Made by a program: the position numbers and the translations under genes
Part shown: piece after piece, positions 292-49,634 of the stretch
How the letters are laid out: every line of letters starts with the position of its first letter
Numbering within the stretch: position 1 is the stretch's first letter
The notes under the pieces: generated by a model
The model's input: only the letters and a program-made list of their open reading frames with translations
What the model was told of the DNA's origin: nothing
The model's database searches: none
Assembly: GCF_000981445.1 (NCBI RefSeq)
Contig: NC_027218.1
Coordinates: 1,364,001-1,428,000 of the forward strand
Direction: 5' to 3'
Length of the DNA: 64,000 bases
From: Babesia bigemina
Taxonomy: Eukaryota

Positions 292-316
292 CTTCACCTT
301 CCGCTCCCAGTCTCTC

Positions 317-590: not shown

Positions 591-603
591 GAACACGCAC
601 CTC

Positions 604-1289: not shown

Positions 1290-4200
1290 TCAAGGTTGCA
1301 GATAGAATATCTTGGCAAGCCTGCCGACACGTGCGGCGGCAAGTAGTGATTGAGCAGCGATACGATGTGATGATGGTGAGTGCAAATGCGATTTGATGTG
1401 GAGCAGGTCGAGGCGGACGAGGAGGACGTAGAATAGGTAGAGTAGAGACAGTGACCACCAGGTGATGATGAGGTAGGAGAAGGGTTGTCGAATGGTCCAG
1501 AGGAAGTTGGGAATAGTGTCGTGTAATATTTTGGATAATATACTTCGCTCATTAAGCACTATCTGTAGTTGCTGAACTAAATCTTTGCAAGAACGTTTTA
1601 TTATATAATTGTTGTGATTACGACCGGATAATTGGCGTCTTCCGCCAAATACTAATCCGAAGGAATATAATGTTGGAAATGTCATGCTGCAGGAGAGCAT
1701 GGAGTTGCAAAGTTGAGTATGCATTTGACCGATTTCCTGCCCTATTTGTGGTTTGAATGCGAAACAATAGTTCTTATCACATCCGGTGATTCGGCACTTG
1801 GATTCACCGCTACCACAGTTGTTTTCACATTCCTTCAACAATTTATAAAATAGATCATACAATGTCTCTGTTAAATATACCATCCAGGAGAGATACAAGG
1901 CCGCATTACGTTTGCTAAACGTACCACATATCTCATAGCTCAAGGAATCAAGATATGCGCCACATTTGCCGTTACTAACATAACACGCATTGTCTACGGT
2001 TAATAACGAATTGAAGTCGCCCAAATTATGAGAAGTCGAATGATCCGTTGATTCAAACAGCATGGCGCATTCGTTCATGGCACCATACTCACGGCCGAGA
2101 TTAGCTGAAGTGACACAATCGTTAAATGCGGTTTTCTTATGTTCACCGCTCCAATTAATAAGGAACTGATGGTAAAACGCAAAAAGGTCACCGAGAGTTT
2201 TAGGTACACTAGGAAGGAGGCAATTCAATCGGCTACATAACTTCGTGAGGGGAGATGACTGATGTCCGCAGTAACCGCCAAGCGCATCAAGAATACGTTG
2301 GCCCGTATCCCTGTGCGATGCCATCTGACTGATACCGGAGAAGCCCATTGGAGTAATGCATGGTAAGCCAGAGTGACTCTTGAGCGAGCACTCCAGTTTT
2401 CCTCTTTCTGATTTCAGATGATGCGGTAGAAACCCTTGCAAACCATCTTCGAGGAACGACTGCAATGGCGATTTAACACCACACTTAGGGTACTCTTGAC
2501 ATCGTTGGTCAGCCTTTTGGTAATCATTTTGGTTAGCCCTTTGCTCACCCTTCTGGTTGCACGCTTGGTTGGCACATTGGTCGACGTTGCACCGCCAACC
2601 TGAGCCACCTACGCCTCGGCCATATTCGCAATCAAGCCAACCACTCAGAGAAGTGTCGTATTCACATTGCTGGTATAAGAAATAGAGCTGGAAATAAAGA
2701 CGGTTTAGAATGTCATGCAGCATACATATTAAACTATTCATATCGGTGGGATATAGTAGACCACTTTCGTTGGTGTAAAAATCGCAAGCATAGATGCCAC
2801 CAACATGACCGTTGCCGAGAATTGCGACTATTATGGCGTGCGATTCCGAACAACTATGCTTCAGCAGATCCAGTATGTTCTTGGAAGACAATGGATGGGG
2901 ATAGGCGCCAATGAATGGATGTCGCTTATCAGACACTTGGAAAATGTTTTTAACGTATGTCTTAAGATACTTGTATGTGAGATTATGTGGTAGACCACTA
3001 AGCCAACAAAGCATTTCGTATATAGTTGAGGGATGCTTAAGTGACCCTAAAGAGGATAGGTGACGCACTTGGTAATACTCGTGCAGGTAGTCGACACACA
3101 TCTTTAGAGTACTGCAGCTTTCCTTATTTGTTTCGTTATCGTCATACTCGCTTACAAGATTATGCTTGAGGAGAACATCAGAAATTAGGTCGCCTCTGCA
3201 CCCCTTCTCGTTTCGCAATTCGCCATTCTGATCGTCAGTTCCTGAAGAAACGATGAAACCACGCCTATCTAAAAACGCTCCAAGACCATTGTCTTTACCC
3301 AGATTTATAGGCTTATGATTCCATTTACTGCCCGACTTACTATCACATTCCTTGCGCAACCTACTGAGGCCGTCGTATAAAATTGAAATCAACGTTAAAC
3401 CTATTTTAGCACACTTATTACCCACTTCTCCGTTCCATACAAAATATTTGAATGAACCAGAATATGTGGAAATGTATACCTTCTGTAACTCCCGAGTCAA
3501 ACCGCTCATCCCTTTTGACAAAGTGTCAAGCAACTCCGGACTATCCCTGGTGGTGAATTTTTTAGGATGAAGCGCGCTTAGTGTTGTGTCGAGTTTCTGA
3601 TAATTATACGAAAATTGATGATCGAAATGGTTCGACTTTTGGAGTACATCAAGCAGAATGTCGAGATTCCCCTTTATTATTTTTACCTGTTCTGATTGTT
3701 CGGTTGGTGTTTTCTGAACCCTCAGCTTAGGCGGGGGCGGGGTCATCACTTGGTCCTCAGTATACAACAATATACGATCAAGGTAGTCCTGTATTTTTTT
3801 CGACATTTCTGCAAACGCAAATTTGATCTGCCGTTCTTTAGGATGCTTTAGAGAAGCCAGTCTTCCGCCTTGTTTGTCATACAATTTGCGAAGTAAGCCT
3901 TTAACTCCACTCTCCGAATCGTCCTCTATGATATCATTGATCTCCAAAATATTGTATTCCACTTTGGTTTTCATAGTATTAAACATTGTGCTAATCTTGG
4001 TGTGATATTCATCCTTGGCCTTCTTCTGAATTTCCTTAGTCGCCTCACAGACTTTGTTGGCGACTAAGGCTTGGATGTTGCTGTTAACATCTTGCACTTC
4101 TTTATCGATAATAGCGGTCTTGAAAGCTTCAACGTGTGAGACTATGGCTTGTAAATTGCCTTCTGTATTACTGTTGATAATACCTTTAATACGCGTTAGA

Positions 4201-6437
4201 ATGCCGTTTAGGGAATAACTAACCTCACCGTGTAGTGTATCCATCACTATACTCTTCATACTCAAAAGTTTCTGCTTGAGACCCCTGTCTTCAAGCCCAT
4301 TACCGGCAAGTTCCTCGATTTTTTTACAGAGTTGTTTAAGGTTGTTTTCGACTACGCCGGCTCTCTCTATTATTATAGATTCCGCTGATTTGGCGGTTTT
4401 AAGAAGTTCAGATGCTTCATTCTTAATATTCTTAAGTTTGTCATTAACGATTCTTTTAACCTCATTATGAAGATTCGTCGCACCGCTAATGGCCGCAGCC
4501 TGTAGGAGTGCGCCGAGTTCCGTATCGACCGCGTTGGCCCTCGTTGCTAGCTCGTTTTTCACCCCTTCGAAAATTTGGCGGGTGATGTTTTGTGTGATTT
4601 GAGTCCAGAGTACCTTGGCGCTGTTAAGATGGTTCAATACCTTTTCCAGCTTGGCTCCAGGACCTGTTGGAGTTGGGTCTGGGATGGCGGTCCCAAGAGA
4701 CGCTCCCACCTCTCTGATCTTACCCAAAGCGTTTACTTGCATAACTTTAAGACCGGGATATTCACCATTAATGGGATTGTCATTGGTAGCCACAATAACC
4801 GCCTGTTCCAAAGCCGTTACCAGCGTTCCGACTCCATCCTCAACGTTTTTCTTAATTTTTGCTACGAGCGGCTCAATATTGTTTTGCAACCCCCAATCAC
4901 CGCCCTTCTGCTTATACTGAGCAATATCACTCGGCTCATTCACCTTGCTATGTACATCATCAAGCAGACGTATGACGCATTCCTTTTCTTCTCCATCTCC
5001 TTTATTCCCCTTAATTGTCGTAATAACCTCATCGTACTTTTTTTTTAACTGTTCAAATTGTGTATGCAGCTTGGTTGCTTGAGCCTCAATTGCCTTGGCC
5101 GCGCTACTAATTTCGTGCGGCTTTCCTTTCACTAGTTCAACTTCGTTTATAATTGCAGTTACCTGCTGCTCAATAATTTTAATAAACTTTTCAGCCGCCT
5201 CTACCCACTTCACCAAATCTCTATGAACCATAGATAACTTCTCATTCACATCATTTAAAGGTTTCTTAATATTTGCTTCAAAATGTGTATTAATGTTCGT
5301 GGACATTTGACCCACAAGTAGTTCTGCTTTCGTATGTATCTCATCTCCCAGCTCCTTCAATTGATACTCACTGCACTCCACCACCGCCTTAAGCTCGTCA
5401 TTGCTGGCTGCTACAATGAACGCCCGAACTTGCACCTCCGCTCTACCAATTGCGCCCTGAAGCTTCCTACGAAGCTCGGGATCAAGATTAGAATACGCTA
5501 ATTTTGCGGCATCAAACGCTTTAGACATTTCGCCGGCGGTGCCAATACAGTTTGATAGCTTGGCTCCGATATGCTTAAACTGATCATCATATGCAATTGC
5601 TTTAAGATTTTGAAGCGCGCCGCTAAAGGCATCACATCTATGTGTTATAAGTGTCTTTAAAGCATCACTAACATTTTTTGCCCTGATCCCCAGCTCCTCA
5701 TCCCACTCCCGCAGCGCCTGGCTCACAGCTTTAATGGCCTCAGACAATCCATTGGGAGTGTACATACTTTCTTTAATTATTCGAAGCGTCGCACCCATAT
5801 CTTTATAATACGTAGTAACGCTTGGATCATCTTTCACTGCTTCAAGCACACCACTCAAAAATCCCATCACCCCGTCACACAGCCTATCCAAGTCGGAGTA
5901 CACAATGCCACTGCCGTCGTAGCCTTTGGTAGCAGAGTTGAAGCCGAGGAAAGTCTCGAGGCCGGCGCACAATTGCGTTAGAATGGTCTCGGGATCCTCA
6001 ATAAGCCCACCAAGGTTTCGCTGAAGTTTTTTCAGTTCCGACAATTTTGAGTCAACATCCTTCAAAGCTGTATCTTTGGAGGACTCAACATAATGGTTCT
6101 TTTCACAGGATTCTTTATCATATGTAAGTTGCTTTAAATGATCATTTAAAGGTGCATTTTCAAGAGAATTAGGTTGCTTAAGCAGCTTTTGAATTTCATC
6201 AATCGCCGAAAATTTAACCTTACAACATTCCTTTGTTTTCCACGATGGTTCAAGAGACTTAGCATACTTGTCAACAATACTATTGTAGGCATCCCTTATC
6301 GCCCCTTCAATCAGCTTTTGCAAAGCTTTGGCCAAATGCTTAAGACCATTACCATCGCCACCATGCCTGACCTGTATGAGCCAGTCGATGGCTTCCCGTA
6401 GATTTTCCGGGCAGTCAGTAAGTTTCTTAGGCGCCAT
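1290..6437 (-). CDS. ves1: Variant erythrocyte surface antigen (VESA/ves-family) protein, 1715 aa, single ORF
   Basis: N-terminus MAPKKLTDCPENLREAIDWL; GYDGSGIVYSDLDRLCDGVMGFL motif; long helical region; Cys-rich C-terminal domain; TM segment; tail RLDLLHIKSHLHSPSSHRIAAQSLLAAAR..YLQP, typical of Babesia ves genes. Confidence 0.9.
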   Translation of the reverse strand: MAPKKLTDCPENLREAIDWLIQVRHGGDGNGLKHLAKALQKLIEGAIRDAYNSIVDKYAKSLEPSWKTKECCKVKFSAIDEIQKLLKQPNSLENAPLNDHLKQLTYDKESCEKNHYVESSKDTALKDVDSKLSELKKLQRNLGGLIEDPETILTQLCAGLETFLGFNSATKGYDGSGIVYSDLDRLCDGVMGFLSGVLEAVKDDPSVTTYYKDMGATLRIIKESMYTPNGLSEAIKAVSQALREWDEELGIRAKNVSDALKTLITHRCDAFSGALQNLKAIAYDDQFKHIGAKLSNCIGTAGEMSKAFDAAKLAYSNLDPELRRKLQGAIGRAEVQVRAFIVAASNDELKAVVECSEYQLKELGDEIHTKAELLVGQMSTNINTHFEANIKKPLNDVNEKLSMVHRDLVKWVEAAEKFIKIIEQQVTAIINEVELVKGKPHEISSAAKAIEAQATKLHTQFEQLKKKYDEVITTIKGNKGDGEEKECVIRLLDDVHSKVNEPSDIAQYKQKGGDWGLQNNIEPLVAKIKKNVEDGVGTLVTALEQAVIVATNDNPINGEYPGLKVMQVNALGKIREVGASLGTAIPDPTPTGPGAKLEKVLNHLNSAKVLWTQITQNITRQIFEGVKNELATRANAVDTELGALLQAAAISGATNLHNEVKRIVNDKLKNIKNEASELLKTAKSAESIIIERAGVVENNLKQLCKKIEELAGNGLEDRGLKQKLLSMKSIVMDTLHGEVSYSLNGILTRIKGIINSNTEGNLQAIVSHVEAFKTAIIDKEVQDVNSNIQALVANKVCEATKEIQKKAKDEYHTKISTMFNTMKTKVEYNILEINDIIEDDSESGVKGLLRKLYDKQGGRLASLKHPKERQIKFAFAEMSKKIQDYLDRILLYTEDQVMTPPPPKLRVQKTPTEQSEQVKIIKGNLDILLDVLQKSNHFDHQFSYNYQKLDTTLSALHPKKFTTRDSPELLDTLSKGMSGLTRELQKVYISTYSGSFKYFVWNGEVGNKCAKIGLTLISILYDGLSRLRKECDSKSGSKWNHKPINLGKDNGLGAFLDRRGFIVSSGTDDQNGELRNEKGCRGDLISDVLLKHNLVSEYDDNETNKESCSTLKMCVDYLHEYYQVRHLSSLGSLKHPSTIYEMLCWLSGLPHNLTYKYLKTYVKNIFQVSDKRHPFIGAYPHPLSSKNILDLLKHSCSESHAIIVAILGNGHVGGIYACDFYTNESGLLYPTDMNSLICMLHDILNRLYFQLYFLYQQCEYDTSLSGWLDCEYGRGVGGSGWRCNVDQCANQACNQKGEQRANQNDYQKADQRCQEYPKCGVKSPLQSFLEDGLQGFLPHHLKSERGKLECSLKSHSGLPCITPMGFSGISQMASHRDTGQRILDALGGYCGHQSSPLTKLCSRLNCLLPSVPKTLGDLFAFYHQFLINWSGEHKKTAFNDCVTSANLGREYGAMNECAMLFESTDHSTSHNLGDFNSLLTVDNACYVSNGKCGAYLDSLSYEICGTFSKRNAALYLSWMVYLTETLYDLFYKLLKECENNCGSGESKCRITGCDKNYCFAFKPQIGQEIGQMHTQLCNSMLSCSMTFPTLYSFGLVFGGRRQLSGRNHNNYIIKRSCKDLVQQLQIVLNERSILSKILHDTIPNFLWTIRQPFSYLIITWWSLSLLYLFYVLLVRLDLLHIKSHLHSPSSHRIAAQSLLAAARVGRLAKIFYLQP

Positions 6438-6494
6438 GGTTTAGGAGTTGAAGTTGATGGTGTTATTTGTTTTGCAGAACTACATGTGAAATTT

Positions 6495-7363
6495 GAGGTT
6501 GCAGATCCTTGACTCCACTGCAAACATGCGATAAGCACTGGACGACTGGCAAACTCCTCTCTCAGTGCTCCAAACTACATTACTTAAGCATCTGCCTGAT
6601 TGAGGGCGTATTTGAAATTCGCGACAAAACTAGCATCCGCCTCGCTCACCTCATTACAACCTCCGGTACCCAGACAGCTCGAAATTCTGGCCCACTTCGG
6701 CGGTGTCCTGAAGCCTACCAACTACACTCCAATGTTCCACCGCCGGAAGAAACAGGTATAGTTGATGCAAGATGTGAGTTAATATTCGTATCAAATTCTA
6801 TCACTCTCCACGTAACTTCAACGATTGCCCCACTGCCACTGCAGGGTTTTAACATAATACTAATACGGCATTCCCAAATGTGACTCGAGCAACTGGGTGA
6901 CATCTAAACGAATATGGGCATGCTGTAATCGAGAATCGGAAAGGGCAATGGCGTTTCACCCCTCCGCATCCTTCACAAGCAGTGGAATCCTCGACGCATG
7001 ATGGATGAGGATGTGACCTCACTTTGAAGGATTACTGATGTAACTGTGAAGCACAGTCGAGAACGTGCTAGCTGAAAGGCGACTGTATGAGTGAAGAGCA
7101 GTAAGGGCAACTGGAGGACTATAGTAATGATGGAAAATGTCATGCCAAACTCAGGAGTCTCATGAGGGCTGAGAGCATACTATACCAGAAGAAAACATCG
7201 TAGATAGTATAGAGAACGCCTTCACAACCGTGGTGAACGGGGCTGTCAACGAAGGCAACCTGGTGTAGACGGGGCATAAAAGAAGAGGACATACAGGGGC
7301 GTGGTTGAGGATATGAAGCAGAGAGCTTTCATCTAGCAGAACAGTTTCATGGTTATACGTTAT
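6495..7363 (-). promoter_or_regulatory. Conserved ves upstream region (copy 1)
   Basis: Aligns by eye, inverted, with ~40650-41510 upstream of the second ves gene (e.g. catgccaaactcaggagtctcatgaggg vs ccctcatgagactcctgagtttggcatg). Confidence 0.7.
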
Positions 7364-7585
7364 ATGATGAGGGACGTGAAATCCAGAGAATATTATGACT
7401 CTCTGAACGACCCGCTGACCCAAATTGGATGCGTGCCAACGTGGATGATACCTGTAATGTTAGGCAACAGTACGACGTGGATCCGGCAACCAGTATCAGC
7501 GTGAGGCGCCAGCCCCGCAAAAAGGAAACCGGCTCTAGGCACGTAGCCACATCCCACACTATAAAATGAGAGAACGCAACAATAA
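7364..7585 (+). mobile_element. 3'-terminal fragment of non-LTR retrotransposon
   Basis: Translates MMRDVKSREYYDSLNDPLTQIGCVPTWMIPVMLGNSTTWIRQPVSA*, matching MRDMKPREDYDSVEDPRAQTGWMPAWMAPVTIGNGPTWIPQPVSA* at the end of the endonuclease relic (54800-54940). The 3' UTR also matches (gtagccac..cacact.taa.atgagagaac) and ends in a degenerate tail caacaataa. Confidence 0.75.
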
Positions 7586-9137
7586 ACAGAGTTCCACTGC
7601 GCATATGAATCTAATAAACTGCAGAATTATAGCGCAAATGGCCAACGGGACTCTCATAAAATCCGCCATGTTTATAATGCGTCAGACGATAAACAATCAT
7701 CCTGAATAAAAATGACCTTCAACAATCTTATAACGCATGAATATATGCATTAACTAATAACTAAGGCTGATTATTTTTTTTTCAAGTAGTGGCAGTGAAA
7801 ATCACAGTCCCAGCTATCTGCCTTTTTACGGCAGAATTTTTCTAAATAAAATACACAGGACAAAAAGTTTAATATATTAGACAACAGTCTTCATGTTATA
7901 TCATTGACAACGTTTTTATGCAATCCATAGCACGAAAATCAGAAGTTTATGCGTCACCGCCGTGCCCGACGACAGACCTCCCCTCAGCAATCCAACAGCC
8001 ACATTTGGCAGCAGATCATCACCGCTATGCTATAACCATTCTGGAAATCTGTATTACTAAGCGATGTTACGTGGAGGCTGCAGGGGTGTTTGCTATCGTA
8101 GGTGGCATGAAGTAGCTATTCAGAGTTGAGCATTTTTATACAACAAAACCGACACGCTTCTCATCCACAGTCTACCTATGTCTAACGGGGAATGCGGTTT
8201 CACCAAATGCACATTAACCAAACTGCAAAACAGCGAGCATAGCTGAATGTATAAATTTGCACTACGCATAGAGAATTGTATTACCGTTGACCTATTCGCC
8301 GCTAAGTTAAGGAACACTCCTAACTTGTAGTTGTTCGATAGAGAGATACAAGCCGTGTTGTATCCACTCCTTTGTAGCTAGCAGGCAGCAAATGTCTGGA
8401 GAAGGAAAAATCTGTATAACACCCATGGAAGTCGTGCACACTGTCGTGAAAGGTGTGGAAATAAACGTGTCGATATAAGACTATGGGGTATCAGCGTGAT
8501 ACAGGTCGGACTTCTCAGCAACGCGACGCTGTAGGTTGAGCCGGTACAAATTTCGGCTGCAGATAATACAAAAGAATCGATTAGCAATGATTTATCTGAT
8601 TCATTAGGTCGCGTGTGACACATCTATCTGGCGTTCTTCGATAATGAGTACAAGCAGCCTTTCCCGTTTGGAATGCTGCAAAGCGACATCAATACAATTA
8701 GACAGGCTTACACACTCTACTTTTGGGCATGATAGAATTCAAATACGACGTAAATATTCGAGCATGTCGGTGAAACAAACGGTTCTGCCATAATTTGCCG
8801 CCGCCCATCTCAGTTAGACATCGTAGACACCATGGATACTGAAATGCAAGTTAACATATTTACGTACAAATCTGTATTATACACAATGCACATTTAGTGT
8901 TCATATTATGCTAACTGGATTGATGGGCGTAATGTGGCTAATTATAATTTTTCATAGTCTGCGAGGCACGCAAAACGCACAGCTCGTTCGCGTTCTAGGT
9001 TTACACACATTTTGAGTGACACTTTTTCAATATATAAGAAACACTCTCATAGTACAAAACATGTAGTATAAGGGCGGTAACGAAGCGTTCTAACGTTACA
9101 CACTTATGGCAGTACAAGCCTCCATGGAATCTGAACG

Positions 9138-38597: not shown

Positions 38598-38606
38598 CCT
38601 GGACCG

Positions 38607-40064
38607 ATGAGACGCTTTGTCGTATTTCCCACCATCCAGGCTATTATTTGCTTTGTGTTGTCGCAAGTCACAGTCCACTGTTACATAAAGGGGCACAATG
38701 ACACTTTGTCGTTGGATATGCGCCAATTCAGGTTACTGGCGTCGCCCAAGGTAACCTACACCGGCCCCGGTCGTAAGGTTGCGGATCGCATAAAGGAGCA
38801 GTTCTCCGTTCAAAACGACTTCCAGGTTCGCCAAGTAAGAAAAGCGCTGAAGCGTTACAAGCGCACCGAGGAGCGGCGATTGTTGGCGAAGCGCCGCAAC
38901 ATTGTGCTCTCTGAGCGTAATGTAGACAAGTCTAAGCATCGCAACCCGGCTGACAAAAGGGCGTTCAAGATAGTGTCTAAATACGAGGTTCACGAGAACC
39001 CGTACACCCACTTTCTACGTCCACTGGAAAAGCGCACTGAGAAGAACCCTTTGGGGAAGGCCACTGTTAAACCTGTACGCATGGGTATTCCGCTGGACAC
39101 TGCTGCCGGGCTTTATGAGGGTGCCTCGCCCGTTGCGCAGCGTCCTTCAGGGACTCCGCAGGTATCCACCCTTCAGTTCATCGGAAGTTACATACACACT
39201 TCGACGCTGCCTTCCCTGTACTTGCCTGAAATATGCCTAGTCGGTCGAAGCAATGTGGGGAAGTCGTCTTTCATTAATACCCTGATGACGTACATCAAGA
39301 CCCGCCGTAAGAGCTGCGACATGGCGTATGTCTCAAAAACACCTGGGTACACGAAATGCATCAATATTTTCAAGGCTGTTGACGTCAAGGGTCGCGACGT
39401 TTTGTCTATAACGGACCTGCCAGGTTACGGTTACGTGAAGATCAAAAACCGTGAGACCGTGCGTGCCATGGACAGCGCCCTCCGTGCCTACTTGCAACGA
39501 CGTAATGAACTGAAGCTGATCCTGTTCCTCATAGACGGCAGCATCGAACCTCAGGAGTCTGACACGGCAATACACGAAATGCTGAAGGCCCTTGGAATAC
39601 CCTACCTTATGGTTTGTACTAAAATGGACAAGGTGGCTCAAAACCAAGTACCAGGTCAGATTCTGTTGTTCCGACAGGTGTACGACGTCAAGAGCCCTTT
39701 GCCAGTGGCGTATTCCAAGTTCGGTGGTGCTGACCTGGGAGGTATTTGGCGCGCCATCTTTGACGCTTGTGACGACAAGTTCGATCCAGCAAACTTGCAG
39801 ATATCAGACGCCTACCAGAGTCTGAAGGATGCTGATTTCGAGAAATACGTGCAGAGCCAGTCGATGGTGTCGACGAAGGATTTGAAGAAGCTTATTTACA
39901 AGAACTTCGATCTGCTGCCCCAGAGCGTGCAAAGTGCCGACATCGACCGCATGAGCAAGGACGAAATGCTAGACGTGTTGAGACTGGCTGCGGAGCGCTC
40001 CGACGCAATTCGCTCCAAGCCGATTGACTTGCTCGAGTACAAGAAAAAACATAGCAAGATGTGA
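38607..40064 (+). CDS. engB: EngB/YihA/YsxC-family GTPase, probably apicoplast-targeted
   Basis: PEICLVGRSNVGKSSFIN (G1), SKTPGYT (G2), DLPGYGY (G3), TKMDK (G4); N-terminal signal peptide and basic transit region. Confidence 0.88.
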   Translation: MRRFVVFPTIQAIICFVLSQVTVHCYIKGHNDTLSLDMRQFRLLASPKVTYTGPGRKVADRIKEQFSVQNDFQVRQVRKALKRYKRTEERRLLAKRRNIVLSERNVDKSKHRNPADKRAFKIVSKYEVHENPYTHFLRPLEKRTEKNPLGKATVKPVRMGIPLDTAAGLYEGASPVAQRPSGTPQVSTLQFIGSYIHTSTLPSLYLPEICLVGRSNVGKSSFINTLMTYIKTRRKSCDMAYVSKTPGYTKCINIFKAVDVKGRDVLSITDLPGYGYVKIKNRETVRAMDSALRAYLQRRNELKLILFLIDGSIEPQESDTAIHEMLKALGIPYLMVCTKMDKVAQNQVPGQILLFRQVYDVKSPLPVAYSKFGGADLGGIWRAIFDACDDKFDPANLQISDAYQSLKDADFEKYVQSQSMVSTKDLKKLIYKNFDLLPQSVQSADIDRMSKDEMLDVLRLAAERSDAIRSKPIDLLEYKKKHSKM

Positions 40065-40423: not shown

Positions 40424-40648
40424 TTATTATTATGTTATCTCATCTTATAGTGTTCTATTTGGCTACGTGCCTAAAGCATGTTTTCGATTGTACGTTGCTA
40501 GTGCCTAATGCCGCTAGTGTTGACTACGGTTTCCACGCCGGTTCATTGCCTATCGTCACTGGTGCCATCCATGCGGGGATCCATCCAGTTTGGGCTTGAG
40601 GGTCAGTCACAGAGTCAGCATCATCTTGGTTTCATGTACCTCGTCACA
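40424..40648 (-). mobile_element. 3'-terminal fragment of non-LTR retrotransposon with (TAA)n tail
   Basis: cattgcctatcgtcactggtgccatccatgcggggatccatccagtttgggct nearly matches 54835-54887. ttattattatgttatctcatcttatagtgt matches 54716-54745. Confidence 0.75.
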
Positions 40649-40649
40649 T

Positions 40650-41510
40650 AACTTATAACGATATAACGTGTCTGCTAGATGAAAGATGTCCGCTTAATAG
40701 CCTCGACCACGTCCCTGCATCTCCTCTTCTTGTATGCCCCGTCTCCACCGGGTTGCCTTCGTTGACAGTCCCGTTATCCACGGTTGTGAAGGCGTGATTT
40801 ATACTATATACGTTGTAGTATTCTTGTAGAGTATGCTCTCAACCCTCATGAGACTCCTGAGTTTGGCATGGCACTTTCCATCATTACTATAGTCCTCCAT
40901 CTGCCCTTACTGCTATTCACTCGTACAATCGCCTTTTAGCCGGATGAATCCTAACTGTGCTTCACAGTAACATCGGTCATCTTCCATACTGAGGTCACAT
41001 TCGCAGACATCACGTATCGAGGATTCCGTTCCCTGTAAACGCTGCGGAGGGGTGAAACGCCATTACCCTTTCCGCTTATCGATTACAGCATGCTTGTATT
41101 CGTGTAATCTCCGTCCAGTCACGCGAGTCACATTTAGGAATACCGCATTAGTATTATGTTAAAACCGTGCAGTGGCAGTGGGGCAATCCTTGAAGTTACG
41201 TGGAGAGTGATAAAATTTGATACGAATATTAACTTGCAGCTTGCATCACCTCTGGCTGTTTCTTCCGGCGGTGGAACATTGGAGTGCAGTTTGGAGGCTT
41301 CAGGGCACCTCCGAAGTGGACTAGAATTTCGAGCTGTCTGGGTGCTGGTGGTTGCAATTAGGTGAGCGAGGTGGATGCTAGTTTTGTCGTGAATTTCAAA
41401 TGCGCCATCAATCGGGTATATGCTTAAGTAATGTAGTCTAGAGCATTGAGAGAGGAGTTTGCTAGCCGTCCAGTGCTTGTCGCATTTTTGCAGGAGTCGG
41501 GGTCTGCAGC
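40650..41510 (+). promoter_or_regulatory. Conserved ves upstream region (copy 2)
   Basis: Inverted homolog of 6495-7363. Contains candidate leader splice sites (ag|gtgagc at ~41362, ttttgcag at ~41493). Confidence 0.7.
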
Positions 41511-41569: not shown

Positions 41570-44500
41570 ATGGCACCGCAATTCAAGAAGCTCACTGACT
41601 GCCCGGAAAATCTCCGGGAGGCCATCGACTGGCTGATACAGGTCAGGCATGGGAATGGTAATGGTGATGGTCTTGAGCATTTGGGCAAAGCTTTGAAAAA
41701 GTTGATTGAGGAGGCTATTCAGAAAGCTTACACCACTAATTTTGATGCACTTCTCAACATTCTCAATTCCGTCAAGTCTTACACCTGTTGTAAAGAGAAA
41801 GTGGCTAAAATTGAGGCACTTAAGAACCCTAAAATGCTTGCCCAAAACATCTTTGAAGACCTTAAGCATTTCTGTGAAAGCATTAGATATTGCTCTGAAA
41901 ATCACTTAGAATCTTCCCAACAAAAGTCCTTTGGTGACATTACCTCCAAGTTGGAACAGCTTGCTAAACTTAAAGAGGGTCTCACTGGATTCACTAATGA
42001 GACTCAATGTAAAGATTTACTTACTAACCTTTGTACTGGCCTCGAAAGTTTCCTCGGCTTCAACAAAGATTCAAAAGGCTACGACGGCAGTGGTATTGTG
42101 TACTCTGACTTGGATAGGCTGTGTGACGGGGTTATGGCGTTTTTGAAGGGGGTGTTGGAGGGTGTGGAAAATGAAGATGCGGTAGGGAAATACGTCGTTA
42201 ATGTTGATGAGATCATAAAGTTTGTCAATAAGAAAATTGGTAATGGACATGCGGGATTTATTTCTGCAATCACCAGTGTGGAATCCACGTTGTCGATGTG
42301 GAATAACATGTTGACACAGCGAACTAATGAGGTTAAGGGTCAATTAGGTGAGTTGAAGGATAAGCATATAAATAAGTATTCGCAGAATATTGAAGCTGTG
42401 AAAAACAATGGTTGTACAGCGATAAATACTTCATTAATGCAGTCTATTGTTAAACTCAAAGCATTTATGACTAACATTAGGAAAAATGATAAAGGATTTA
42501 ATGGCCTTGATACTGGTTTACAAGATAAATTGAATGTGCCGCTAGAGAAGGTAGATGATGGGATCAAAATTTTGCAGAATGCTACACAGGACGACGACTT
42601 TATAAAGGCCGTCTACGTTGTCCAGTCAACCTTTGCCAAATTGCCCAAAGAAATTGAGAGTTCCATATCGGAGAATGTTAAGAGTACTATTAGTGGGCAT
42701 GAGAGTGCGGTGGGTGTACTCAAAGAAACTGTAAAAAAAGAAGTTGAAAAATCTCGCGACGCATTTCTCACCGAACGCCTTGCCGTTTTCAAAGAGGATT
42801 TGGTGAAGGCCATTACTACGTTCAGTAAAAATGCATACAACCTGGGAGGTTTGAAGAATAAGACGGTTAGACAGGCGATTGAGGCAATTGAAAAGAAATT
42901 GGCGAAACTTAATAATGGCGAGGAGACTGTTGAAGACTCTGCAAAGTTGCAAGAATTAAGAACTGTGACTGTCATCCCCCAGACGAAGAGTATTAAAGAT
43001 GCACTTAATGAGCATGCAGGTGAAATTTCTACGAAGTTGAACACTTTGGATGATTCTATTGACGCACCGCAAAACTTATTTAGAACATATGAAAATGATT
43101 TGCTCAGGTTGGTTGAAAAAGCTAATGACGATTTGCAAAAGGCTCTAAAATGTGCCCGGGACAATGCTAAGAATTTGGGTGGGTTAAATAATATTGCGGT
43201 TAAGACGGCTGTACAGCAAATTCAAGTGAAATTGGATGATGCTGATAATATAACCAGCATGGAGAAGCTTAAAAAATTAAAAACCGATCTAATGGATAAG
43301 GAGCATATTGTAACCATTACGGATGCACTTAATCCGAAAGGCAGCGCCGTCAACAATACGATTCGGGATGCATTGAATCATATAGAAAATCCCGAAATTG
43401 TTTTTGCAACTCATAACAAAGATCTAGATACGTTAACTGAAAAAGCAAAAGCCGATTTGGTGGCCGCCGTCACCAACGTCACGGAATACATAGAGACCCA
43501 CGGTGGGATGAACAATAAGAAAGTTAAGGCCGCCTTAGACAAAATTGAATCAGCGTTACAGGAGTTTGAAACGCTAAGTATAGGTGTAGAGAGTTTGTTT
43601 CGCGTAGTCAATGCAGTTGATGAAGAGATTAGTGGGAAAGTTCCAAGTGTGGCTGCCCTTAGCGGTCTTCAAGCCAAATTGACCGGTGAACTGGAAATTC
43701 TAAAACAAAGAGTTCGTACGTTGAGCGATAAGAATACAACAGAATTAAAATCTCTCATAACATCTACCAGGTTGTATATTACTGATGCGATATACATAAT
43801 CGAGTGTTTCGGAACAACTTCTGAAGGGAAAAAAGAGGAGGAAGTTCATGGTGTAATAGGGCGCTTAGAAAAGCAGTTAAAGGAGCTCGATGATCCGTTT
43901 AAAGGTAAGAATTTAAGGGGATTTCATAGTTCCGTTAATGAACATCTTGCAAAACTTAAAAGTGATAATGTTGATTTTCAAGGCCAAGGCCTCCCACAAC
44001 TAAAAAACCCACATATGCCAGATATTAGTCAAAAACTGATAGAAGCACGTGATGCTGCCTTGAATCCTCTGCTGGATAGGGCGAAGGGTGTCGTTGAGAA
44101 GTATATAACGAATGCTGAGAATTACATCAATATTTCTAGGACCACATCTCTAAACGAATTTAGAGAAGCATTAGGCAGGTTAAAAGGAAACATTCAAAAA
44201 CTTAATGCGAATTCCGTGTTGACAGACTTTGAATCACAGCTGACAGAAGTTAATAGTCAGTTTGATAGTGCTAGAGATAATCCACAAGGTGCGGCCCAGG
44301 CCTTACTCCCACACTTTCAAGAATACATCGCACAAATTAAGAGACAAATTAGGCAGACATTCATACACGCGCAATCTACTGCCTTCCAAACGGCAATCGA
44401 CATATCCAGGGTAGAGGTTGGTGCTGTAGTTAGCAAAGCTAAGAAGGCGATTGAAGCAGCTTCACAGGAGTATCAGGCGGCAATGAATGGCCCACGTTCG

Positions 44501-47500
44501 CGCATTGATAAGGCGGTTAGTGATATTAAAGAGAAAGCTTCATCCGACACGCTTAACACTGTTACCTCTAATGTCTCCCCAGATTTTGAAATCATCATAC
44601 AAGCCATAAAGCAAAAATCAGTTTTCTCCGACGATTCAAATGAACGCCAGAAATATTTCAACGAACTTCAAGGGCTCATCACTAACACAACAAACACTCT
44701 GTCTGAGGCGTACAAAAACGCGTACAGGAGTGCAGCGAAGTCCTATCTGAGCGGAGCGATTGGTAAGATTAGGGTGGCGGTCACTAAAGCAGAGGATCAA
44801 TATTATCAGGCGATTCAACATGTAAATTTCGATTTAACCCAGATTAGTCATGACAACTTCACGAAAGAAACGGTGCGAACTTCATTAAGTGCAACACTCA
44901 CTAAACCATTCGCAACATTGCTCCCCAAAGTTGTAGAATATTCTGCATTCAGTAATGATTGTAGTGAACGTGTAAATTGTTTCACTCAGCTTCAAAGTTT
45001 AATAACCAACAAAGTATCCACTCTGACTGCCGCCTACAAAAGTGCTTATCAAAGTACTGCTAAGACGTATCTCAGTAAAGCAATAGGTATGATTAAGCAT
45101 GAAGTTGTTGAGACAGAGAAGAAGTATAAAACGGTAGTTGCTGGTACTGTTATGGAAATCGAGAACATTATTATTGGACTTAAAGCAGATGCATTCAAAA
45201 ATAAAAGAGCTCATTCTGCATTGAAAACGTTATTTGATGCGCCATTCAGGGTTTTGCAATCTACAGTCCAGGAATATTCCGCCTTTAAAAAAGACTTAGA
45301 TAATCGTAAAACATGTTTCTCAAAGCTTCACGATTTAATCGCCCACATGGTTCAAACACTCGTTGAAGCCTATGAACTGTTTGACAGGTGCGCAATAAAG
45401 GCAATAGATCACCTTCGCCAGTCATTCGATGATGCGAAAAGCAGAATTGATAGACTGGGAGTAGATGTGAAAGAAAAAGTAAGAAAGGCGTTCGACAAGG
45501 TTATTGGGGAGGTTTACGATATGTTCTCCAAAGACAAGATCGCGCTGTTAAAATCTTTGAGAATCTGCGTTGAGGAGCAGAGAAAAGAAGTTGAAAGAAT
45601 TATTGGCGTTGACTTAAAAAAAGGGGTTAAAGGATTACTACAGTTGCTGAAAATATGGCTTGATAAGAAAAGTGGTGACCTTAAAAACGCTCAAAACTTG
45701 AAATCGTTGGCTGACCTATTTAAACACCTCAACAAGCATCTTTATAGGTATGTTAAATTTCAATATGACGGATTGGAATTGGAAGATGATAGCGATGACG
45801 ATGATGATGATTCCCTATCTTCCACCCCTGCTGTCCGACTAGTCCCACCCCCGATTTCCGGTGGCAGTTATAGAGCGAGACCGGCAGAACCTACCTCTCA
45901 ACCTAAGGGGAATCCACTAGGTCGCGTCGGCATGCCTTATAAGACAGCGTCAACAGACCAGCAGCATCCTTCGCAGCCCACCAAGAACCCCATTGCGGAT
46001 CATCTTGACAGGCTTAAGGTGCATTCCGACAGACTTTTTGGCACACTTTCCGCCGGGTACTTTAGTAGATCATTCGCAACAAAATTGGAGGATGTAACAG
46101 AGTTCCTCAGCTCCATGCGCTCTTCAAATTTTGCAGGTATTGGCAGTCCATTATTCGACATCCTCACGTTAGGGCTTCAGTCTCTGACTCACGAACTTGG
46201 GAAGGCATATATATCGGCGTATGATACTCAGGCGTACAATTTCCAATGGGATACTGATAGAAATGCAGAGAACTGTGCCAAGTCATTCTTCACCCTTCTG
46301 AACAATGTCTACGAAGATATGGCCACGCTGAAAGAGAAGTGCGTAGACAAATCCAAATATGGTTGGAAAGACAAGAAAATTTGTAAAACTCAAAAAGGCA
46401 CAGGAAATTCACTTGGCGCGTTTTTCGAGAGGTGCGGATACAGGGTCCCTACTGATGACCAAGGCAAACAGGACGGGCAGTTGCAGTGTAAGGACAACAT
46501 GAAGGGTTCGGATATACGTGAGAAACTGGTTGAGTCGATGATTGACACGCTTAACAATTCGCATCTTAATGCGTGCATCAAGCAAAAATACTATCCAGAA
46601 CAGACGGCAAGAACGATGTATGATCTCTTCGACTTACTTAAATGCCTATTCCATCACCTCGACGAGTACAACGAGGTCTGCCACCTCGCAATATTCACCG
46701 CACGTAGGAACCCGTGCAGCGTTTATGACATGTTAATCTGGCTGACCGGTCTACCATACAACGTCGCACGTCCTGCAATGATGCGTGAAGGTATCGGTGG
46801 TCTGCTTGAAAATCCAAACAAGGCACTTGGTGGCGACGATGATGGCCTTTTGGCATATGAGTTGGACGACTTCTACCTCGATGCTCATCCAAGTAAGATC
46901 ACGTATCACGATATCGATTACACGATTCATCACATCAGTTCAAGCGCGTACGACATTATCACTTGCATAAGTGGCACCGGTGACGATGCGACATTCTACG
47001 GCAGCGACCTGTGCAACAACTCCTTCAAATTCAAGTATCCTACATCGGGTGAGGAATGTCTCGATATGCTTTTGGACATCCTCCGAAGACTGTTCCCGCC
47101 ACTTAAATTCTTGTTGACGCAGTGCAGTTATCCGGCCAATCTTAACGGTTGGTCACAGTGTGAGTACGGCAAGAACGTCTCCACTACTAAGTGGCCGTGT
47201 AAAAAGCACTCAACGTGCCGACGAAATGGCCAACCAAATTGTGAACCAAAATCACCACTTATGTCATACTTGAACGACTGCCTACCGGGCCATCTTCCGC
47301 ACCAACTAACCGATATTGGTTGCAAGTACAAATGTGACACCTGCCCTACATCAACGCCTGGACAACCATGTTTGACGCCACTCGGTTTCCGCGGTTTCTC
47401 AGGGTCCACGAAAACAGGTAAAGATATATGCAGAGCGCTGAACAAATTCTTTGACGATCGCAACCTGTCCGCCCTGTTTGGTCTCAGCACCAAGACGCCG

Positions 47501-48436
47501 ACCACTCTACCTGAACACTTCGGCTTCGTATCGTGTCTTGTCAAGGGATGGGTACAGAAATCAAAATTGGTAGGTGATAACATACAACAAACGTTCCATA
47601 AATCAATATCCAGCCGCTCTATATCATTATATAAGGAACCCAGTGAATTGACTGATGCGCTCCGCAATGCTTACGGTGACGCACGGCCTGCTCATGTTGA
47701 TCAGAGTCATCTGGCTGCATATGCGGCGTTATCACATCTGTCAATGACAACGTGCAGTGATCCCAACCAAAAAGCATATTGCGCTCCGTATATTACATCG
47801 CTATGCGGAGATTCATACACGTGTCTGCCATTTAAAAACTCTAATACCTATTTGTCGTGGGCAGTATATCTCCCATGGGATTTCTGGCAGCTACTCAACA
47901 ATTTCTACAATGACTTTTGCGATATGTTGTGTCAAGATTGGGGATGTCGCACGTGTTTACGCGCTGATAAATGCAGACGTGGTAAGCATGGCCTGGTAGA
48001 AAAACTTGATAATAAGGCTGACAGCCCTCATTGCAAATGCCCATCCATGGTACAGTGTAGAGGGGTCTCACCGACACTCTATCGGTATGGATTTGTATTT
48101 GGTGAGGCCTCAACGCTGAGTGACGGAAACTCCAAAAAGCTCTGCTCTGATTTCTGCACTCAATTGGGCAACGTGCTTAATTCGCAATACTTTAAAGACC
48201 TATTCACAAAATGTGATGAATACCTACTTGCCATCCGTTTCCCATTCATGACCTTAACTCTAGCGCTCTGGCTCCTCTCTCTGTTGTACCTCCTCCACAT
48301 CATGGTCATCCGCCTAGACCTGCTCCACATCAAATCGCATTTGCACTCACCCTCATCACATCGCATCGCCGCGCAATCACTACTCGCCGCGGCACGTGTC
48401 AACAAACTTGCCAAGATCACCTACCTGCAACCTTGA
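41570..48436 (+). CDS. ves1: Variant erythrocyte surface antigen (VESA/ves-family) protein, ~2288 aa, single ORF
   Basis: MAPQFKKLTDCPENLREAIDWL start, GYDGSGIVYSDLDRLCDGVM motif, helical repeats, Cys-rich C-terminal domain, TM segment, and RLDLLHIKSHLHSPSSHRIAAQSLLAAAR..YLQP tail. Confidence 0.9.
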   Translation: MAPQFKKLTDCPENLREAIDWLIQVRHGNGNGDGLEHLGKALKKLIEEAIQKAYTTNFDALLNILNSVKSYTCCKEKVAKIEALKNPKMLAQNIFEDLKHFCESIRYCSENHLESSQQKSFGDITSKLEQLAKLKEGLTGFTNETQCKDLLTNLCTGLESFLGFNKDSKGYDGSGIVYSDLDRLCDGVMAFLKGVLEGVENEDAVGKYVVNVDEIIKFVNKKIGNGHAGFISAITSVESTLSMWNNMLTQRTNEVKGQLGELKDKHINKYSQNIEAVKNNGCTAINTSLMQSIVKLKAFMTNIRKNDKGFNGLDTGLQDKLNVPLEKVDDGIKILQNATQDDDFIKAVYVVQSTFAKLPKEIESSISENVKSTISGHESAVGVLKETVKKEVEKSRDAFLTERLAVFKEDLVKAITTFSKNAYNLGGLKNKTVRQAIEAIEKKLAKLNNGEETVEDSAKLQELRTVTVIPQTKSIKDALNEHAGEISTKLNTLDDSIDAPQNLFRTYENDLLRLVEKANDDLQKALKCARDNAKNLGGLNNIAVKTAVQQIQVKLDDADNITSMEKLKKLKTDLMDKEHIVTITDALNPKGSAVNNTIRDALNHIENPEIVFATHNKDLDTLTEKAKADLVAAVTNVTEYIETHGGMNNKKVKAALDKIESALQEFETLSIGVESLFRVVNAVDEEISGKVPSVAALSGLQAKLTGELEILKQRVRTLSDKNTTELKSLITSTRLYITDAIYIIECFGTTSEGKKEEEVHGVIGRLEKQLKELDDPFKGKNLRGFHSSVNEHLAKLKSDNVDFQGQGLPQLKNPHMPDISQKLIEARDAALNPLLDRAKGVVEKYITNAENYINISRTTSLNEFREALGRLKGNIQKLNANSVLTDFESQLTEVNSQFDSARDNPQGAAQALLPHFQEYIAQIKRQIRQTFIHAQSTAFQTAIDISRVEVGAVVSKAKKAIEAASQEYQAAMNGPRSRIDKAVSDIKEKASSDTLNTVTSNVSPDFEIIIQAIKQKSVFSDDSNERQKYFNELQGLITNTTNTLSEAYKNAYRSAAKSYLSGAIGKIRVAVTKAEDQYYQAIQHVNFDLTQISHDNFTKETVRTSLSATLTKPFATLLPKVVEYSAFSNDCSERVNCFTQLQSLITNKVSTLTAAYKSAYQSTAKTYLSKAIGMIKHEVVETEKKYKTVVAGTVMEIENIIIGLKADAFKNKRAHSALKTLFDAPFRVLQSTVQEYSAFKKDLDNRKTCFSKLHDLIAHMVQTLVEAYELFDRCAIKAIDHLRQSFDDAKSRIDRLGVDVKEKVRKAFDKVIGEVYDMFSKDKIALLKSLRICVEEQRKEVERIIGVDLKKGVKGLLQLLKIWLDKKSGDLKNAQNLKSLADLFKHLNKHLYRYVKFQYDGLELEDDSDDDDDDSLSSTPAVRLVPPPISGGSYRARPAEPTSQPKGNPLGRVGMPYKTASTDQQHPSQPTKNPIADHLDRLKVHSDRLFGTLSAGYFSRSFATKLEDVTEFLSSMRSSNFAGIGSPLFDILTLGLQSLTHELGKAYISAYDTQAYNFQWDTDRNAENCAKSFFTLLNNVYEDMATLKEKCVDKSKYGWKDKKICKTQKGTGNSLGAFFERCGYRVPTDDQGKQDGQLQCKDNMKGSDIREKLVESMIDTLNNSHLNACIKQKYYPEQTARTMYDLFDLLKCLFHHLDEYNEVCHLAIFTARRNPCSVYDMLIWLTGLPYNVARPAMMREGIGGLLENPNKALGGDDDGLLAYELDDFYLDAHPSKITYHDIDYTIHHISSSAYDIITCISGTGDDATFYGSDLCNNSFKFKYPTSGEECLDMLLDILRRLFPPLKFLLTQCSYPANLNGWSQCEYGKNVSTTKWPCKKHSTCRRNGQPNCEPKSPLMSYLNDCLPGHLPHQLTDIGCKYKCDTCPTSTPGQPCLTPLGFRGFSGSTKTGKDICRALNKFFDDRNLSALFGLSTKTPTTLPEHFGFVSCLVKGWVQKSKLVGDNIQQTFHKSISSRSISLYKEPSELTDALRNAYGDARPAHVDQSHLAAYAALSHLSMTTCSDPNQKAYCAPYITSLCGDSYTCLPFKNSNTYLSWAVYLPWDFWQLLNNFYNDFCDMLCQDWGCRTCLRADKCRRGKHGLVEKLDNKADSPHCKCPSMVQCRGVSPTLYRYGFVFGEASTLSDGNSKKLCSDFCTQLGNVLNSQYFKDLFTKCDEYLLAIRFPFMTLTLALWLLSLLYLLHIMVIRLDLLHIKSHLHSPSSHRIAAQSLLAAARVNKLAKITYLQP

Positions 48437-48720: not shown

Positions 48721-49160
48721 TTTGGCACGTTAGCTATTATATACGTTACTAGAGTATGGATGTCACCGGGACTGCGAATTGGTGGTCAGTGGGCGGCTTA
48801 GTTATGTGACTCTAGTTGCAAGAATGCGAACGGCTAACATGGCAACCTTGTGCTGTAAGTCGGCTATACACTACTTAGAACACCAGCATATTGACACATA
48901 GAGCAGTGACGAAGTGGCGTGGTCTGTGGTGGGTGGAGTTGACTGCTCAACGGGCACCGGTTGATCTGCATGCCACGGCGATAATATCGCTCACATGCGT
49001 TAACTTAATGGTATTTATGTTGTGATAGCTGTGTAGTTGTCATGTAACCGGCGGTGCGCTGGATGTCGGTCATCTGGTTGCCACCATAACGCCGATGGGA
49101 GACGGCGTCAGTGTCGTTGGCTGACGTACGTGTTTAATGCCTGCACAGGTTGAGGGGAAG

Positions 49161-49523
49161 ATGTCGGAGTGCCAGTGTAGTACTAGCAGCAGCGGATCCT
49201 GCTCTGTATCGGGATGTAAGTGTTGTCCTTGGTGTTGTTCAAAGTGTTTGATTTGCTCTAAATGTAAAGAGAGTTGCACCACCTACACAAAAGACAAGGC
49301 GATATGCGATCTCTCAACATGTCCCAAATGTAGCGATAAAGGTTTGTGGAAGTGTTTTTGTCTGTGTTGTATGAAGAAGAAGGCTTGGATTTTCATCCCC
49401 CTCTTCATCGTCGTCATCATCGTCGTTTCATGCTACCATTTCGGATTGCTAAACATAACTTATCGTAAGCTTTCCAACATTTTTCCAACATCTCGACGGA
49501 GCGCCTACAGTGGACTCTCATAG
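49161..49523 (+). CDS. Small cysteine-rich single-TM protein, ves-associated family
   Basis: MSECQCSTS..CKCCPWCCSKCLICSKCKESC..CFCLCCMKKKAWIFIPLFIVVIIVVSCY; preceded by the conserved block and a leader acceptor (gcacag|gttgagggg). ATG 49137 probably lies in the intron. Confidence 0.8.
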   Translation: MSECQCSTSSSGSCSVSGCKCCPWCCSKCLICSKCKESCTTYTKDKAICDLSTCPKCSDKGLWKCFCLCCMKKKAWIFIPLFIVVIIVVSCYHFGLLNITYRKLSNIFPTSRRSAYSGLS

Positions 49524-49634
49524 GCTCACATATTATACGTAGACATGTCACATTAGTTAATAAAATATAGGCGGAATCTACCTTCACTCTCATGGCTTAG
49601 GTTTAGTTAACGTAATTGTCACTGATTTCTCCCT

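What the first reader, a model, noticed from the sequence alone, without database searches (positions are those of the whole stretch)
7364..7585. The retroelement 3' end is a built-in cap of the ves upstream cassette
Seen: both full-length ves genes carry the last ~220 bp of the retrotransposon ~0.9-1.1 kb upstream, in opposite (head-to-head) orientation: 7364-7585 (+) and 40424-40648 (-). Both copies leave the element at the same junction (ctttcatctagcaga..gttata.gttat.tga.gagg.ac.tgaa), and similarity between the two cassettes stops at the element tail. Inference, three options: one insertion was co-opted into the ancestral ves promoter/boundary and spread with it; or the cassette is a non-autonomous element whose antisense transcript ends in an RT-recognised 3' tail and is mobilised in trans; or the repeat seeds silencing or ectopic recombination. 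Any of these would link antigenic-variation loci to a retroelement.
Basis: partly seen in the sequence, partly recalled or inferred. Interest (0 to 1): 0.88.

Follow-up and report, generated by a model that had tools for sequence, protein, structure and literature searches.

The report
Retrotransposon relic caps Babesia antigen genes
Two variable surface-antigen (ves) genes of the cattle parasite Babesia bigemina each have a patched-together remnant of a LINE retrotransposon about 0.7-1.15 kb upstream, whose 3' end marks where the two gene units stop resembling each other, so it likely served as the recombination point by which this gene subfamily was copied along one chromosome.

Summary
Both ves genes carry the LINE 3' end head-to-head, 927 and 925 bp from the ATG; their similarity ends at its tail. 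The window's 'retrotransposon' (54716-55488) is only a broken 3' fragment of the known B. bigemina LINE. The 'junction' is not where the cassette leaves the element: about 220 bp further toward ves is older LINE endonuclease sequence, so the junction is a seam lacking 40 codons. The blocks have different histories: old relic 84% between cassettes and 54-58% to the LINE; tail coding part 65% between cassettes and 75-78% to the LINE, and mosaic (p=0.001). In one other run the tail is far deeper than the LINE body. This ves subfamily sits on one chromosome (28 of 29 placed in B. bigemina; 28 of 29 listed in B. ovata), while LINE copies lie on three, which argues against copying by reverse transcription. 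Best reading (0.45): one old insertion, spread by DNA recombination with the tail as breakpoint, patched by conversion. This would explain 28 published 'anomalous' ves1b insertions. The genome-wide test could not be run.

The parts
1290..6437 (-). ves gene 1, single ORF of 1715 aa, N-terminal type found almost only on one chromosome (ves1b-like; family label inferred)
6438..7145 (.). shared ves upstream region (5' UTR/promoter, presumed); no LINE homology detected; mostly 74-94% identical to cassette 2 per 100 bp, about 60% next to the ATG
7146..7363 (+). old LINE relic: decayed restriction-like endonuclease coding sequence with stops and a frameshift; firm for 7173-7357, weaker for 7146-7172
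7364..7504 (+). LINE tail, coding part (last 46 codons, frame open); 75% to the LINE fragment; keeps some B. ovata-like residues
7505..7585 (+). LINE 3' UTR, cassette-type middle part and a conserved last 43 nt (35 of 43 to the LINE fragment)
7593..7780 (.). unidentified sequence past tail 1; single in the window, covered by about 5 contigs in run X1
38598..40064 (+). core gene (MMR_HSR1 GTPase) bordering the second ves island, 360 bp from tail 2
40424..40648 (-). LINE tail of cassette 2; 40530-40602 is a patch closer to the modern LINE (65 of 73, against 53 of 73 for cassette 1)
40649..40866 (-). old LINE relic of cassette 2 (DNA evidence for 40657-40797; 84% to cassette 1, 54% to the LINE fragment)
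41573..48436 (+). ves gene 2, single ORF of about 2287 aa, same N-terminal type
49125..49523 (+). small cysteine-rich ORF ending in a hydrophobic stretch, part of the repeated unit downstream of ves (related ORFs at 52971-53504 and 54229-54642)
51519..52175 (+). ves 3' fragment without 5' end or LINE tail (a shorter one at 49629-49739)
54716..55488 (-). younger 5'-truncated LINE copy (annotated BBBOND_0305640), direct repeat of tail 2 at 14.3 kb
55697..58510 (-). core gene (V-ATPase a subunit) bordering the island, 209 bp from the LINE fragment

Best explanation
The upstream region of both ves genes ends in a layered LINE remnant, an old endonuclease block joined at a shared seam to a younger mosaic tail, which was likely fixed once in the founder of this ves subfamily and likely copied with the gene by DNA recombination along one chromosome, with the tail as the probable breakpoint. 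Shown: the anatomy, the three blocks with different histories, the mosaic tail, the end of similarity at the tail, and the confinement of the annotated subfamily to one chromosome. Inferred: an old LINE copy landed divergently upstream of the founder gene; a younger 3' end replaced or patched its distal part, leaving the 40-codon gap; later copies of the unit (tail, relic, promoter, ves, small cysteine-rich gene) were made by strand invasion into short resident LINE 3' ends between core genes, resolving in the conserved last 43 nt; gene conversion from younger LINE copies keeps refreshing the tail. No RNA step and no regulatory role are required.
For: One origin: shared seam and shared 3' UTR indel; 7 contigs of run X1 turn from LINE-like to cassette-type UTR at 54795-54796. 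Different histories: sites grouping the two cassettes are 49 of 68 informative in the relic, 7 of 52 in the tail coding part, 13 of 27 in the UTR (Fisher 9e-11 for the first pair). Conversion: best-segment permutation p=0.001; one X1 contig end (depth 21) joins a 13-letter cassette-type stretch (13 of 13 to cassette 2, 5 of 13 to the LINE fragment) to LINE sequence running through the part missing here. Tail as breakpoint: unrelated flanks behind all three tails; 3 X1 contigs leave at 7575 with poorly agreeing flanks (0.63). Many tails: summed contig depth 88-172 on the tail, 0-21 on the LINE body, about 3 on single-copy DNA. DNA-level spread: 28 of 29 placed genes of this N-terminal type on the 3.52-Mb chromosome, against 6 of 14 annotated LINE copies; 28 of 29 on one contig in B. 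ovata. PMC4066756 section 21 reports 28 lineage-specific ves1b insertions on chromosome 3; B. bovis ves genes undergo segmental gene conversion (PMC7485966 abstract).
Against: Only 2 cassettes were read in full; no genome was available, so the relic is not shown at the other loci. A simple single crossover into the 54.7-kb LINE copy is not supported: its 3' UTR is not cassette-type and that of cassette 2 is (13 against 7 and 7 sites). About 5 X1 contigs cover the DNA past tail 1, so that flank is repeated too and some duplications may run beyond the tail. The X1 data are contigs of one run from a diverged relative (59 differences in 727 bases on a single-copy piece); the tool states that their depth is no copy number, and the chimeric end is 13 letters on one contig. 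LINE copies also insert in and beside ves genes on their own, so LINE sequence near ves needs no special mechanism.
Confidence: 0.45

Rival explanations
1. Passive passenger. One old insertion hitch-hiked with ves duplications driven by ves-ves homology or ordinary repair; conversion by LINE copies is a side effect and the tail plays no part in spreading.
For: Needs no new mechanism. LINE copies gather near ves loci anyway: 3 of 6 on chromosome 3 within 2 genes of a listed ves (background 12%, p about 0.03), a whole LINE inside a B. ovata ves gene model and one fused to a B. bigemina ves model. DNA past tail 1 is repeated in X1. PMC4066756 suggests ves genes land where selection is weak.
Against: Does not explain why similarity stops within about 10 bp of the tail end while the tail itself is still recognisable at 65-75%, nor the further flanks that start there in X1.
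Confidence: 0.27
2. Exapted control element. The relic has become part of the ves promoter, a boundary against neighbouring core genes, or a silencing seed, and is kept by selection. This can hold together with the best explanation.
For: The relic is as alike between the cassettes (85-91% per 100 bp over 7087-7336) as the proximal upstream region (86-94% over 6537-6886), with a dip to 74-80% between them. ATG-to-seam and ATG-to-tail distances agree within 2 bp. B. bovis ves promoters lie in the upstream intergenic region (PMC4066756 passage).
Against: Conversion between ves paralogues gives the same pattern. No fold better than shuffles in 6 of 6 tail pieces (z -0.7 to 1.0) and no Rfam match. 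B. bovis runs ves switching without detectable LINEs (PMC9141347 passage).
Confidence: 0.15
3. Trans-mobilised unit. An antisense RNA through ves ends at the tail and is copied by the LINE reverse transcriptase (SINE-like tail exchange or 3' transduction).
For: The unit ends exactly at a LINE 3' end with the last 43 nt well kept (34-38 of 43). The partner LINE has several full-length ORFs at 99.7-99.9% identity, so it was active recently. Tail exchange is known in SINEs (PMC5786205 abstract). A 7-letter word is shared by the two outer borders of island 2.
Against: Confinement to one chromosome in two species while LINE copies are on three. The truncated ves pieces in the window are tail-less 3' pieces, the opposite of what early-stopped antisense copies would leave. 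The unit is 7-9 kb or more. The 7-letter word is about 20 bases off the LINE 5' end and has p=0.05.
Confidence: 0.08
4. Independent insertions. A site-preferring LINE hit the same upstream position separately in each ves locus.
For: In the tail coding part each cassette is closer to the LINE than to the other. LINEs of this endonuclease type are often site-specific (PMC4640811, abstract start in listing).
Against: Same seam, same 40-codon gap, shared old relic and shared UTR indel.
Confidence: 0.05

Closest known systems
LINE-like elements of Babesia bigemina, B. ovata and B. divergens (PMC9141347; RT gene expansion in B. caballi, PMC10463595)
   Same: The source element is this family: RVT_1 domain, 91% to intact B. 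bigemina ORFs, 78% to B. ovata, about 50% to B. caballi.
   Different: In the passages and supplement rows seen, no link to ves genes, no truncated tails and no endonuclease type for B. bigemina are described.
The 28 lineage-specific ves1b insertions on B. bigemina chromosome 3 (PMC4066756)
   Same: Same chromosome; 28 listed genes of the window's N-terminal type lie there; the window lies just beyond the 975-1335 kb region drawn in that paper (inferred and contig lengths).
   Different: The sections and passages read give no mechanism and never mention a reverse transcriptase gene (0 hits).
SIDER2 retroposon remnants of Leishmania (PMC2424063, abstract)
   Same: Short decayed retroposon pieces, subfamilies clustered along one chromosome, proposed to serve DNA amplification.
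   Different: SIDERs are free-standing repeats of another LINE lineage (recalled) with a shown post-transcriptional role; here the remnant is tied to one antigen-gene promoter in divergent orientation.
Bipartite non-autonomous LINEs and SINE tail exchange (PMC5786205, abstract)
   Same: Internally deleted LINE piece with a younger tail.
   Different: No LINE 5' end or small-RNA head was found upstream, and the copies do not scatter over chromosomes.
ingi/RIME near trypanosome VSG loci and RHS genes (recalled; titles only)
   Same: Retroposon pieces in or beside variable multigene families.
   Different: Different LINE group and phylum; not compared here.

Membership tests
RLE-type (early-branching) non-LTR retrotransposon: the source element | Single ORF with a non-LTR reverse transcriptase | tested here: met
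   P0004, 1347 aa, RVT_1 at 640-881 as the only Pfam hit; best solved relatives are L1 ORF2 and R2 proteins
RLE-type (early-branching) non-LTR retrotransposon: the source element | CX2-3CX7-8HX4C knuckle after the RT (definition from PMC5678591) | tested here: met
   Present at residue 1119 of P0004 and 439 of P0005; broken in the window copy; not matched in B. caballi P0008
RLE-type (early-branching) non-LTR retrotransposon: the source element | C-terminal PD-(D/E) endonuclease with a distant lysine, no AP endonuclease | tested here: met
   RPD...E and downstream K..KY motifs by pattern; no AP-endonuclease Pfam hit; motif level only, no fold computed
RLE-type (early-branching) non-LTR retrotransposon: the source element | Target-site specificity and target-site duplication | tested here: inconclusive
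   Longest word shared by the flanks of the 54.7-kb copy is 6 letters, away from its ends
Named clade (R2, R4/Dong, NeSL, HERO, Utopia, CRE) | Position in an RT tree with named references | not tested
   No named reference set was at hand; B. divergens copies were called 'LINE R2' by MGEScan (PMC9141347)
Non-autonomous retroelement (SINE or bipartite LINE): the cassette | 3' end shared with a partner LINE | tested here: met
Non-autonomous retroelement (SINE or bipartite LINE): the cassette | Head from a small RNA or from the LINE 5' end | tested here: inconclusive
Non-autonomous retroelement (SINE or bipartite LINE): the cassette | Copies scattered like the partner LINE | tested here: not met
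   By proxy of the linked ves type: 28 of 29 on one chromosome against 6 of 14
Non-autonomous retroelement (SINE or bipartite LINE): the cassette | Target-site duplications | tested here: inconclusive
   One 7-letter candidate, p=0.05, offset from the junction; the far border of cassette 1 is outside the window
Non-autonomous retroelement (SINE or bipartite LINE): the cassette | A transcript ending at the tail | not testable with these tools
   No RNA run listed
BbigVes1b | Membership by the published C-terminal phylogeny | not tested
   Label inferred from the chromosome-3 location and the count of 28; no list of ves1b ids was seen in the supplement part read

The most novel reading that the evidence does not exclude
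All of the roughly 30 chromosome-3 ves1b genes of B. bigemina, and their B. ovata counterparts, are capped by this one LINE relic, older than the split of the two species, and the subfamily walked along the chromosome by using scattered LINE 3' ends as landing pads. A retrotransposon would then be the engine of variant-antigen gene dispersal in an apicomplexan, a phylum nearly free of mobile elements, and would account for the published anomaly of 28 ves1b insertions in otherwise conserved gene order.
Probability: 0.3. Interest if true: 0.78.

Novelty: new variant of a known kind. Interest (0 to 1): 0.52.

Why it matters
How ves genes reach new chromosome positions is open: PMC4066756 shows routine transposition and calls the 28 chromosome-3 ves1b insertions anomalous, without a mechanism. 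This finding supplies a concrete sequence at the unit's border and makes the question testable with one scan of public genomes. It also shows that part of what would be taken as a ves promoter region is decayed LINE coding sequence, which bears on promoter mapping and on repeat annotation in Babesia. If the relic is only a passenger, it is still a dated marker for the subfamily's history.

Tried and rejected
No RNA holder listed. Metagenome scans found nothing. Earlier findings: none. LINE homology upstream of about 7146 was sought and not found (z -0.4 and 0.5 on DNA; HMM over six frames); a knuckle-like match near the ves 5' UTR (score 28.6 against shuffle maximum 27.5) was set aside as chance. 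No fetched protein matched translations of the upstream or downstream regions at E 0.01. Tail RNA structure: none better than shuffles. Circle integration into the 54.7-kb LINE copy and 3' transduction of the whole 15-kb island were considered and not supported. No joint showing the 40-codon gap in a modern-type LINE was seen in X1, at 80% likeness. LINE-ves adjacency within 5 genes loses significance when the window's own copy is left out (p=0.09). Print searches that found no LINE-ves link; the library lacks most subscription papers, and the figure supplement of PMC4066756 (file 2) was not read.

Full report
What the window is. The window holds core eukaryotic genes and two long ves ORFs, 1290-6437 (-) and 41573-48436 (+). 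The fragment at 54800-55495 equals the annotated B. bigemina protein BBBOND_0305640, and the next gene is the V-ATPase BBBOND_0305650, so this is B. bigemina chromosome 3. No whole genome was held.

The observation. Self-comparison gives one 1.3-kb block shared by the two ves loci (6298-7585 with 41718-40424, 80%) and a third copy of its last 220 bp at 54716-54940 (73% to each), far above shuffles. The end motif occurs 3 times, 0 expected. The tails face away from the ves genes at matching distances. Behind the tails the three flanks are unrelated.

The element. The third copy is the 3' 775 bp of a LINE: 91% to residues 1120-1347 of a 1347-aa B. bigemina ORF, with a stop in frame and a broken knuckle. 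The intact ORF has an RT domain, a CCHC knuckle and a C-terminal PD-(D/E) motif and no AP endonuclease (definition from passages of PMC5678591): an RLE-type LINE. Several full-length ORFs are 99.7-99.9% identical, so the family was active recently (inference). Relatives exist in B. ovata and B. caballi. LINE-like elements in these species are in print (PMC9141347, passages: 0.97% of the B. bigemina genome, none in B. bovis). The clade was not tested.

The junction is inside LINE sequence. A B. ovata LINE protein aligns across the junction with a 40-residue gap. DNA upstream of the junction aligns to the LINE in both cassettes (z 6.8 and 6.5), and a frameshift-aware profile places 7173-7330 on endonuclease residues 1198-1250 (46.8 against 21.6 +/- 2.0 in 25 shuffles); this protein test missed the block in cassette 2. 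A weaker match extends to 7146; nothing was found further up. The relic peptide of cassette 1 scores 96, 102 and 65 against B. bigemina, B. ovata and B. caballi proteins, so it may predate the bigemina-ovata split (inference). LINE-derived DNA therefore covers about 440 bp and starts about 710 bp from the ATG.

Three blocks, different histories. Relic: cassette 1 to 2, 118 of 141; to the LINE fragment, 82 of 142 and 76 of 141. Tail coding part: 91 of 139 between cassettes; 106 of 141 and 108 of 139 to the LINE. 3' UTR: 61 of 81 between cassettes; 55 of 81 and 55 of 82 to the LINE. One insertion decaying evenly cannot give this (Fisher 9e-11). Within the tail coding part the informative sites come in runs (p=0.001, 1000 permutations): cassette 2 has a 73-bp patch at 65 of 73 to the LINE, cassette 1 has 53 of 73 there and keeps B. 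ovata-like residues. I read this as one founding event followed by conversion from younger LINE copies.

A second genome, as contigs. One run, X1, held part of the region; it is a diverged relative (59 differences in 727 bases). Summed contig depth, which the tool warns is no copy number, is about 37 on the ves upstream region against 4 on single-copy DNA, and 88-172 on the tail against 0-21 on the LINE body and about 3 on single-copy DNA. Seven contigs switch from LINE-like coding end to cassette-type UTR; one contig end at depth 21 joins a cassette-type 13-mer to LINE sequence that spans the part missing here, a lead for a second cassette type with another crossover. Three contigs leave at the tail end into disagreeing flanks, but about five cover 7593-7780, past tail 1; whether those are joined to a tail is not shown. 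Only 6 of 89 and 6 of 43 loose ends were printed.

Where the subfamily lies. The search with the ves N-terminus listed the best 120 of 182 hits; I dropped the window's own protein and typed the other 119 by N-terminal motif. Of 31 B. bigemina proteins with the window's motif, 28 are on the 3.52-Mb chromosome, 1 on a 0.89-Mb contig and 2 on small contigs; of 29 in B. ovata, 28 are on one 3.70-Mb contig. Annotated LINE ORFs and fragments placed on chromosomes number 3, 5 and 6 on chromosomes 1, 2 and 3 (chromosome 2 partly by accession order; lists may be cut). The contrast has p=1.6e-4. PMC4066756 (sections 21 and 22 part 1, passages, supplement 3 part 1 of 11) reports 28 ves1b loci on chromosome 3 as 'somewhat anomalous' lineage-specific insertions. 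That these other genes carry the relic is not shown.

LINEs and ves more widely. A whole LINE ORF interrupts a B. ovata ves model and another is fused to a B. bigemina ves model. On chromosome 3, 3 of 6 LINE copies are within 2 genes of a listed ves (one is the fusion; background 12%; p=0.03; ves list incomplete, the window's two indices estimated). On chromosome 2, 1 of 5 is next to a listed ves; chromosome 1 could not be judged. Orientation is unknown in all of these. In the window, island 2 is bordered by LINE sequence on both sides, 360 and 209 bp from core genes.

Mechanism. Confinement to one chromosome and tail-less 3' ves fragments speak against copying by reverse transcription (0.08). 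A border exactly at the tail end, several different flanks there and a mosaic tail speak for the tail as a recombination point (0.45) over a pure passenger (0.27). Against my reading: the UTR pattern excludes the simplest single crossover at island 2, and repeated DNA exists past tail 1. A regulatory role (0.15) rests only on conservation that conversion also explains; the tail is the least conserved part, has no notable fold and no Rfam match.

Comparison and novelty. It works most like Leishmania SIDER2 remnants (PMC2424063, abstract) and resembles tail exchange in SINEs (PMC5786205, abstract) without meeting the scatter criterion of a non-autonomous element. The LINE and the ves1b insertions are each known; seven searches and passages of the B. 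ovata and B. caballi genome papers showed no link between them. New variant of a known kind; interest 0.52, because it rests on two loci and one run but makes a published anomaly testable in one scan.

Noticed in passing
proteins P0169 and P0317: Gene models in which a whole LINE ORF lies inside a B. ovata ves gene (residues 635-1960 of 2412) or is fused in front of a B. bigemina ves gene lacking its N-terminal part (BBBOND_0308820). Likely fresh insertions stitched together by annotation.
   Followed up: partly
The ves subfamily with this N-terminus is confined to one chromosome-sized contig in both B. bigemina and B. ovata; the other N-terminal types are mostly on small contigs.
   Followed up: partly
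window 49125-49523, 52971-53504, 54229-54642 (+) and a related repeat-bearing stretch at about 200-600 (-): A family of small cysteine-rich ORFs ending in a hydrophobic stretch follows the ves genes; no significant Pfam family.
   Followed up: no
window 298-596: Tandem repeat of about 73-75 bp inside the cysteine-rich stretch downstream of ves gene 1.
   Followed up: no
window 7593-7780: Unidentified sequence, single in the window but covered by about 5 contigs in run X1.
   Followed up: partly
window 40416-40423 and 54708-54715: Tail 2 and the LINE fragment share about 8 more bases past the TAA repeats, and a similar word lies about 20 bases before the fragment's 5' end; possibly a target preference, p about 0.05.
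   Followed up: partly
PMC4066756 and PMC9141347: Speculation: species with LINEs (B. bigemina, B. divergens, B. ovata) have ves2, the 5'-only ves forms; B. bovis has no LINE and only two ves2-like genes. Early-stopped antisense copies of a tail-capped unit would look like ves2. Not tested.
   Followed up: no
proteins P0013, P0014: Among the closest non-Babesia relatives of the LINE are proteins annotated in a wasp and an octopus assembly, closer than L1 or R2; horizontal transfer or contamination was not examined.
   Followed up: no
window 55085-55087: The public gene model of the LINE fragment (P0026) omits the residues around the in-frame stop, probably a false intron.
   Followed up: yes
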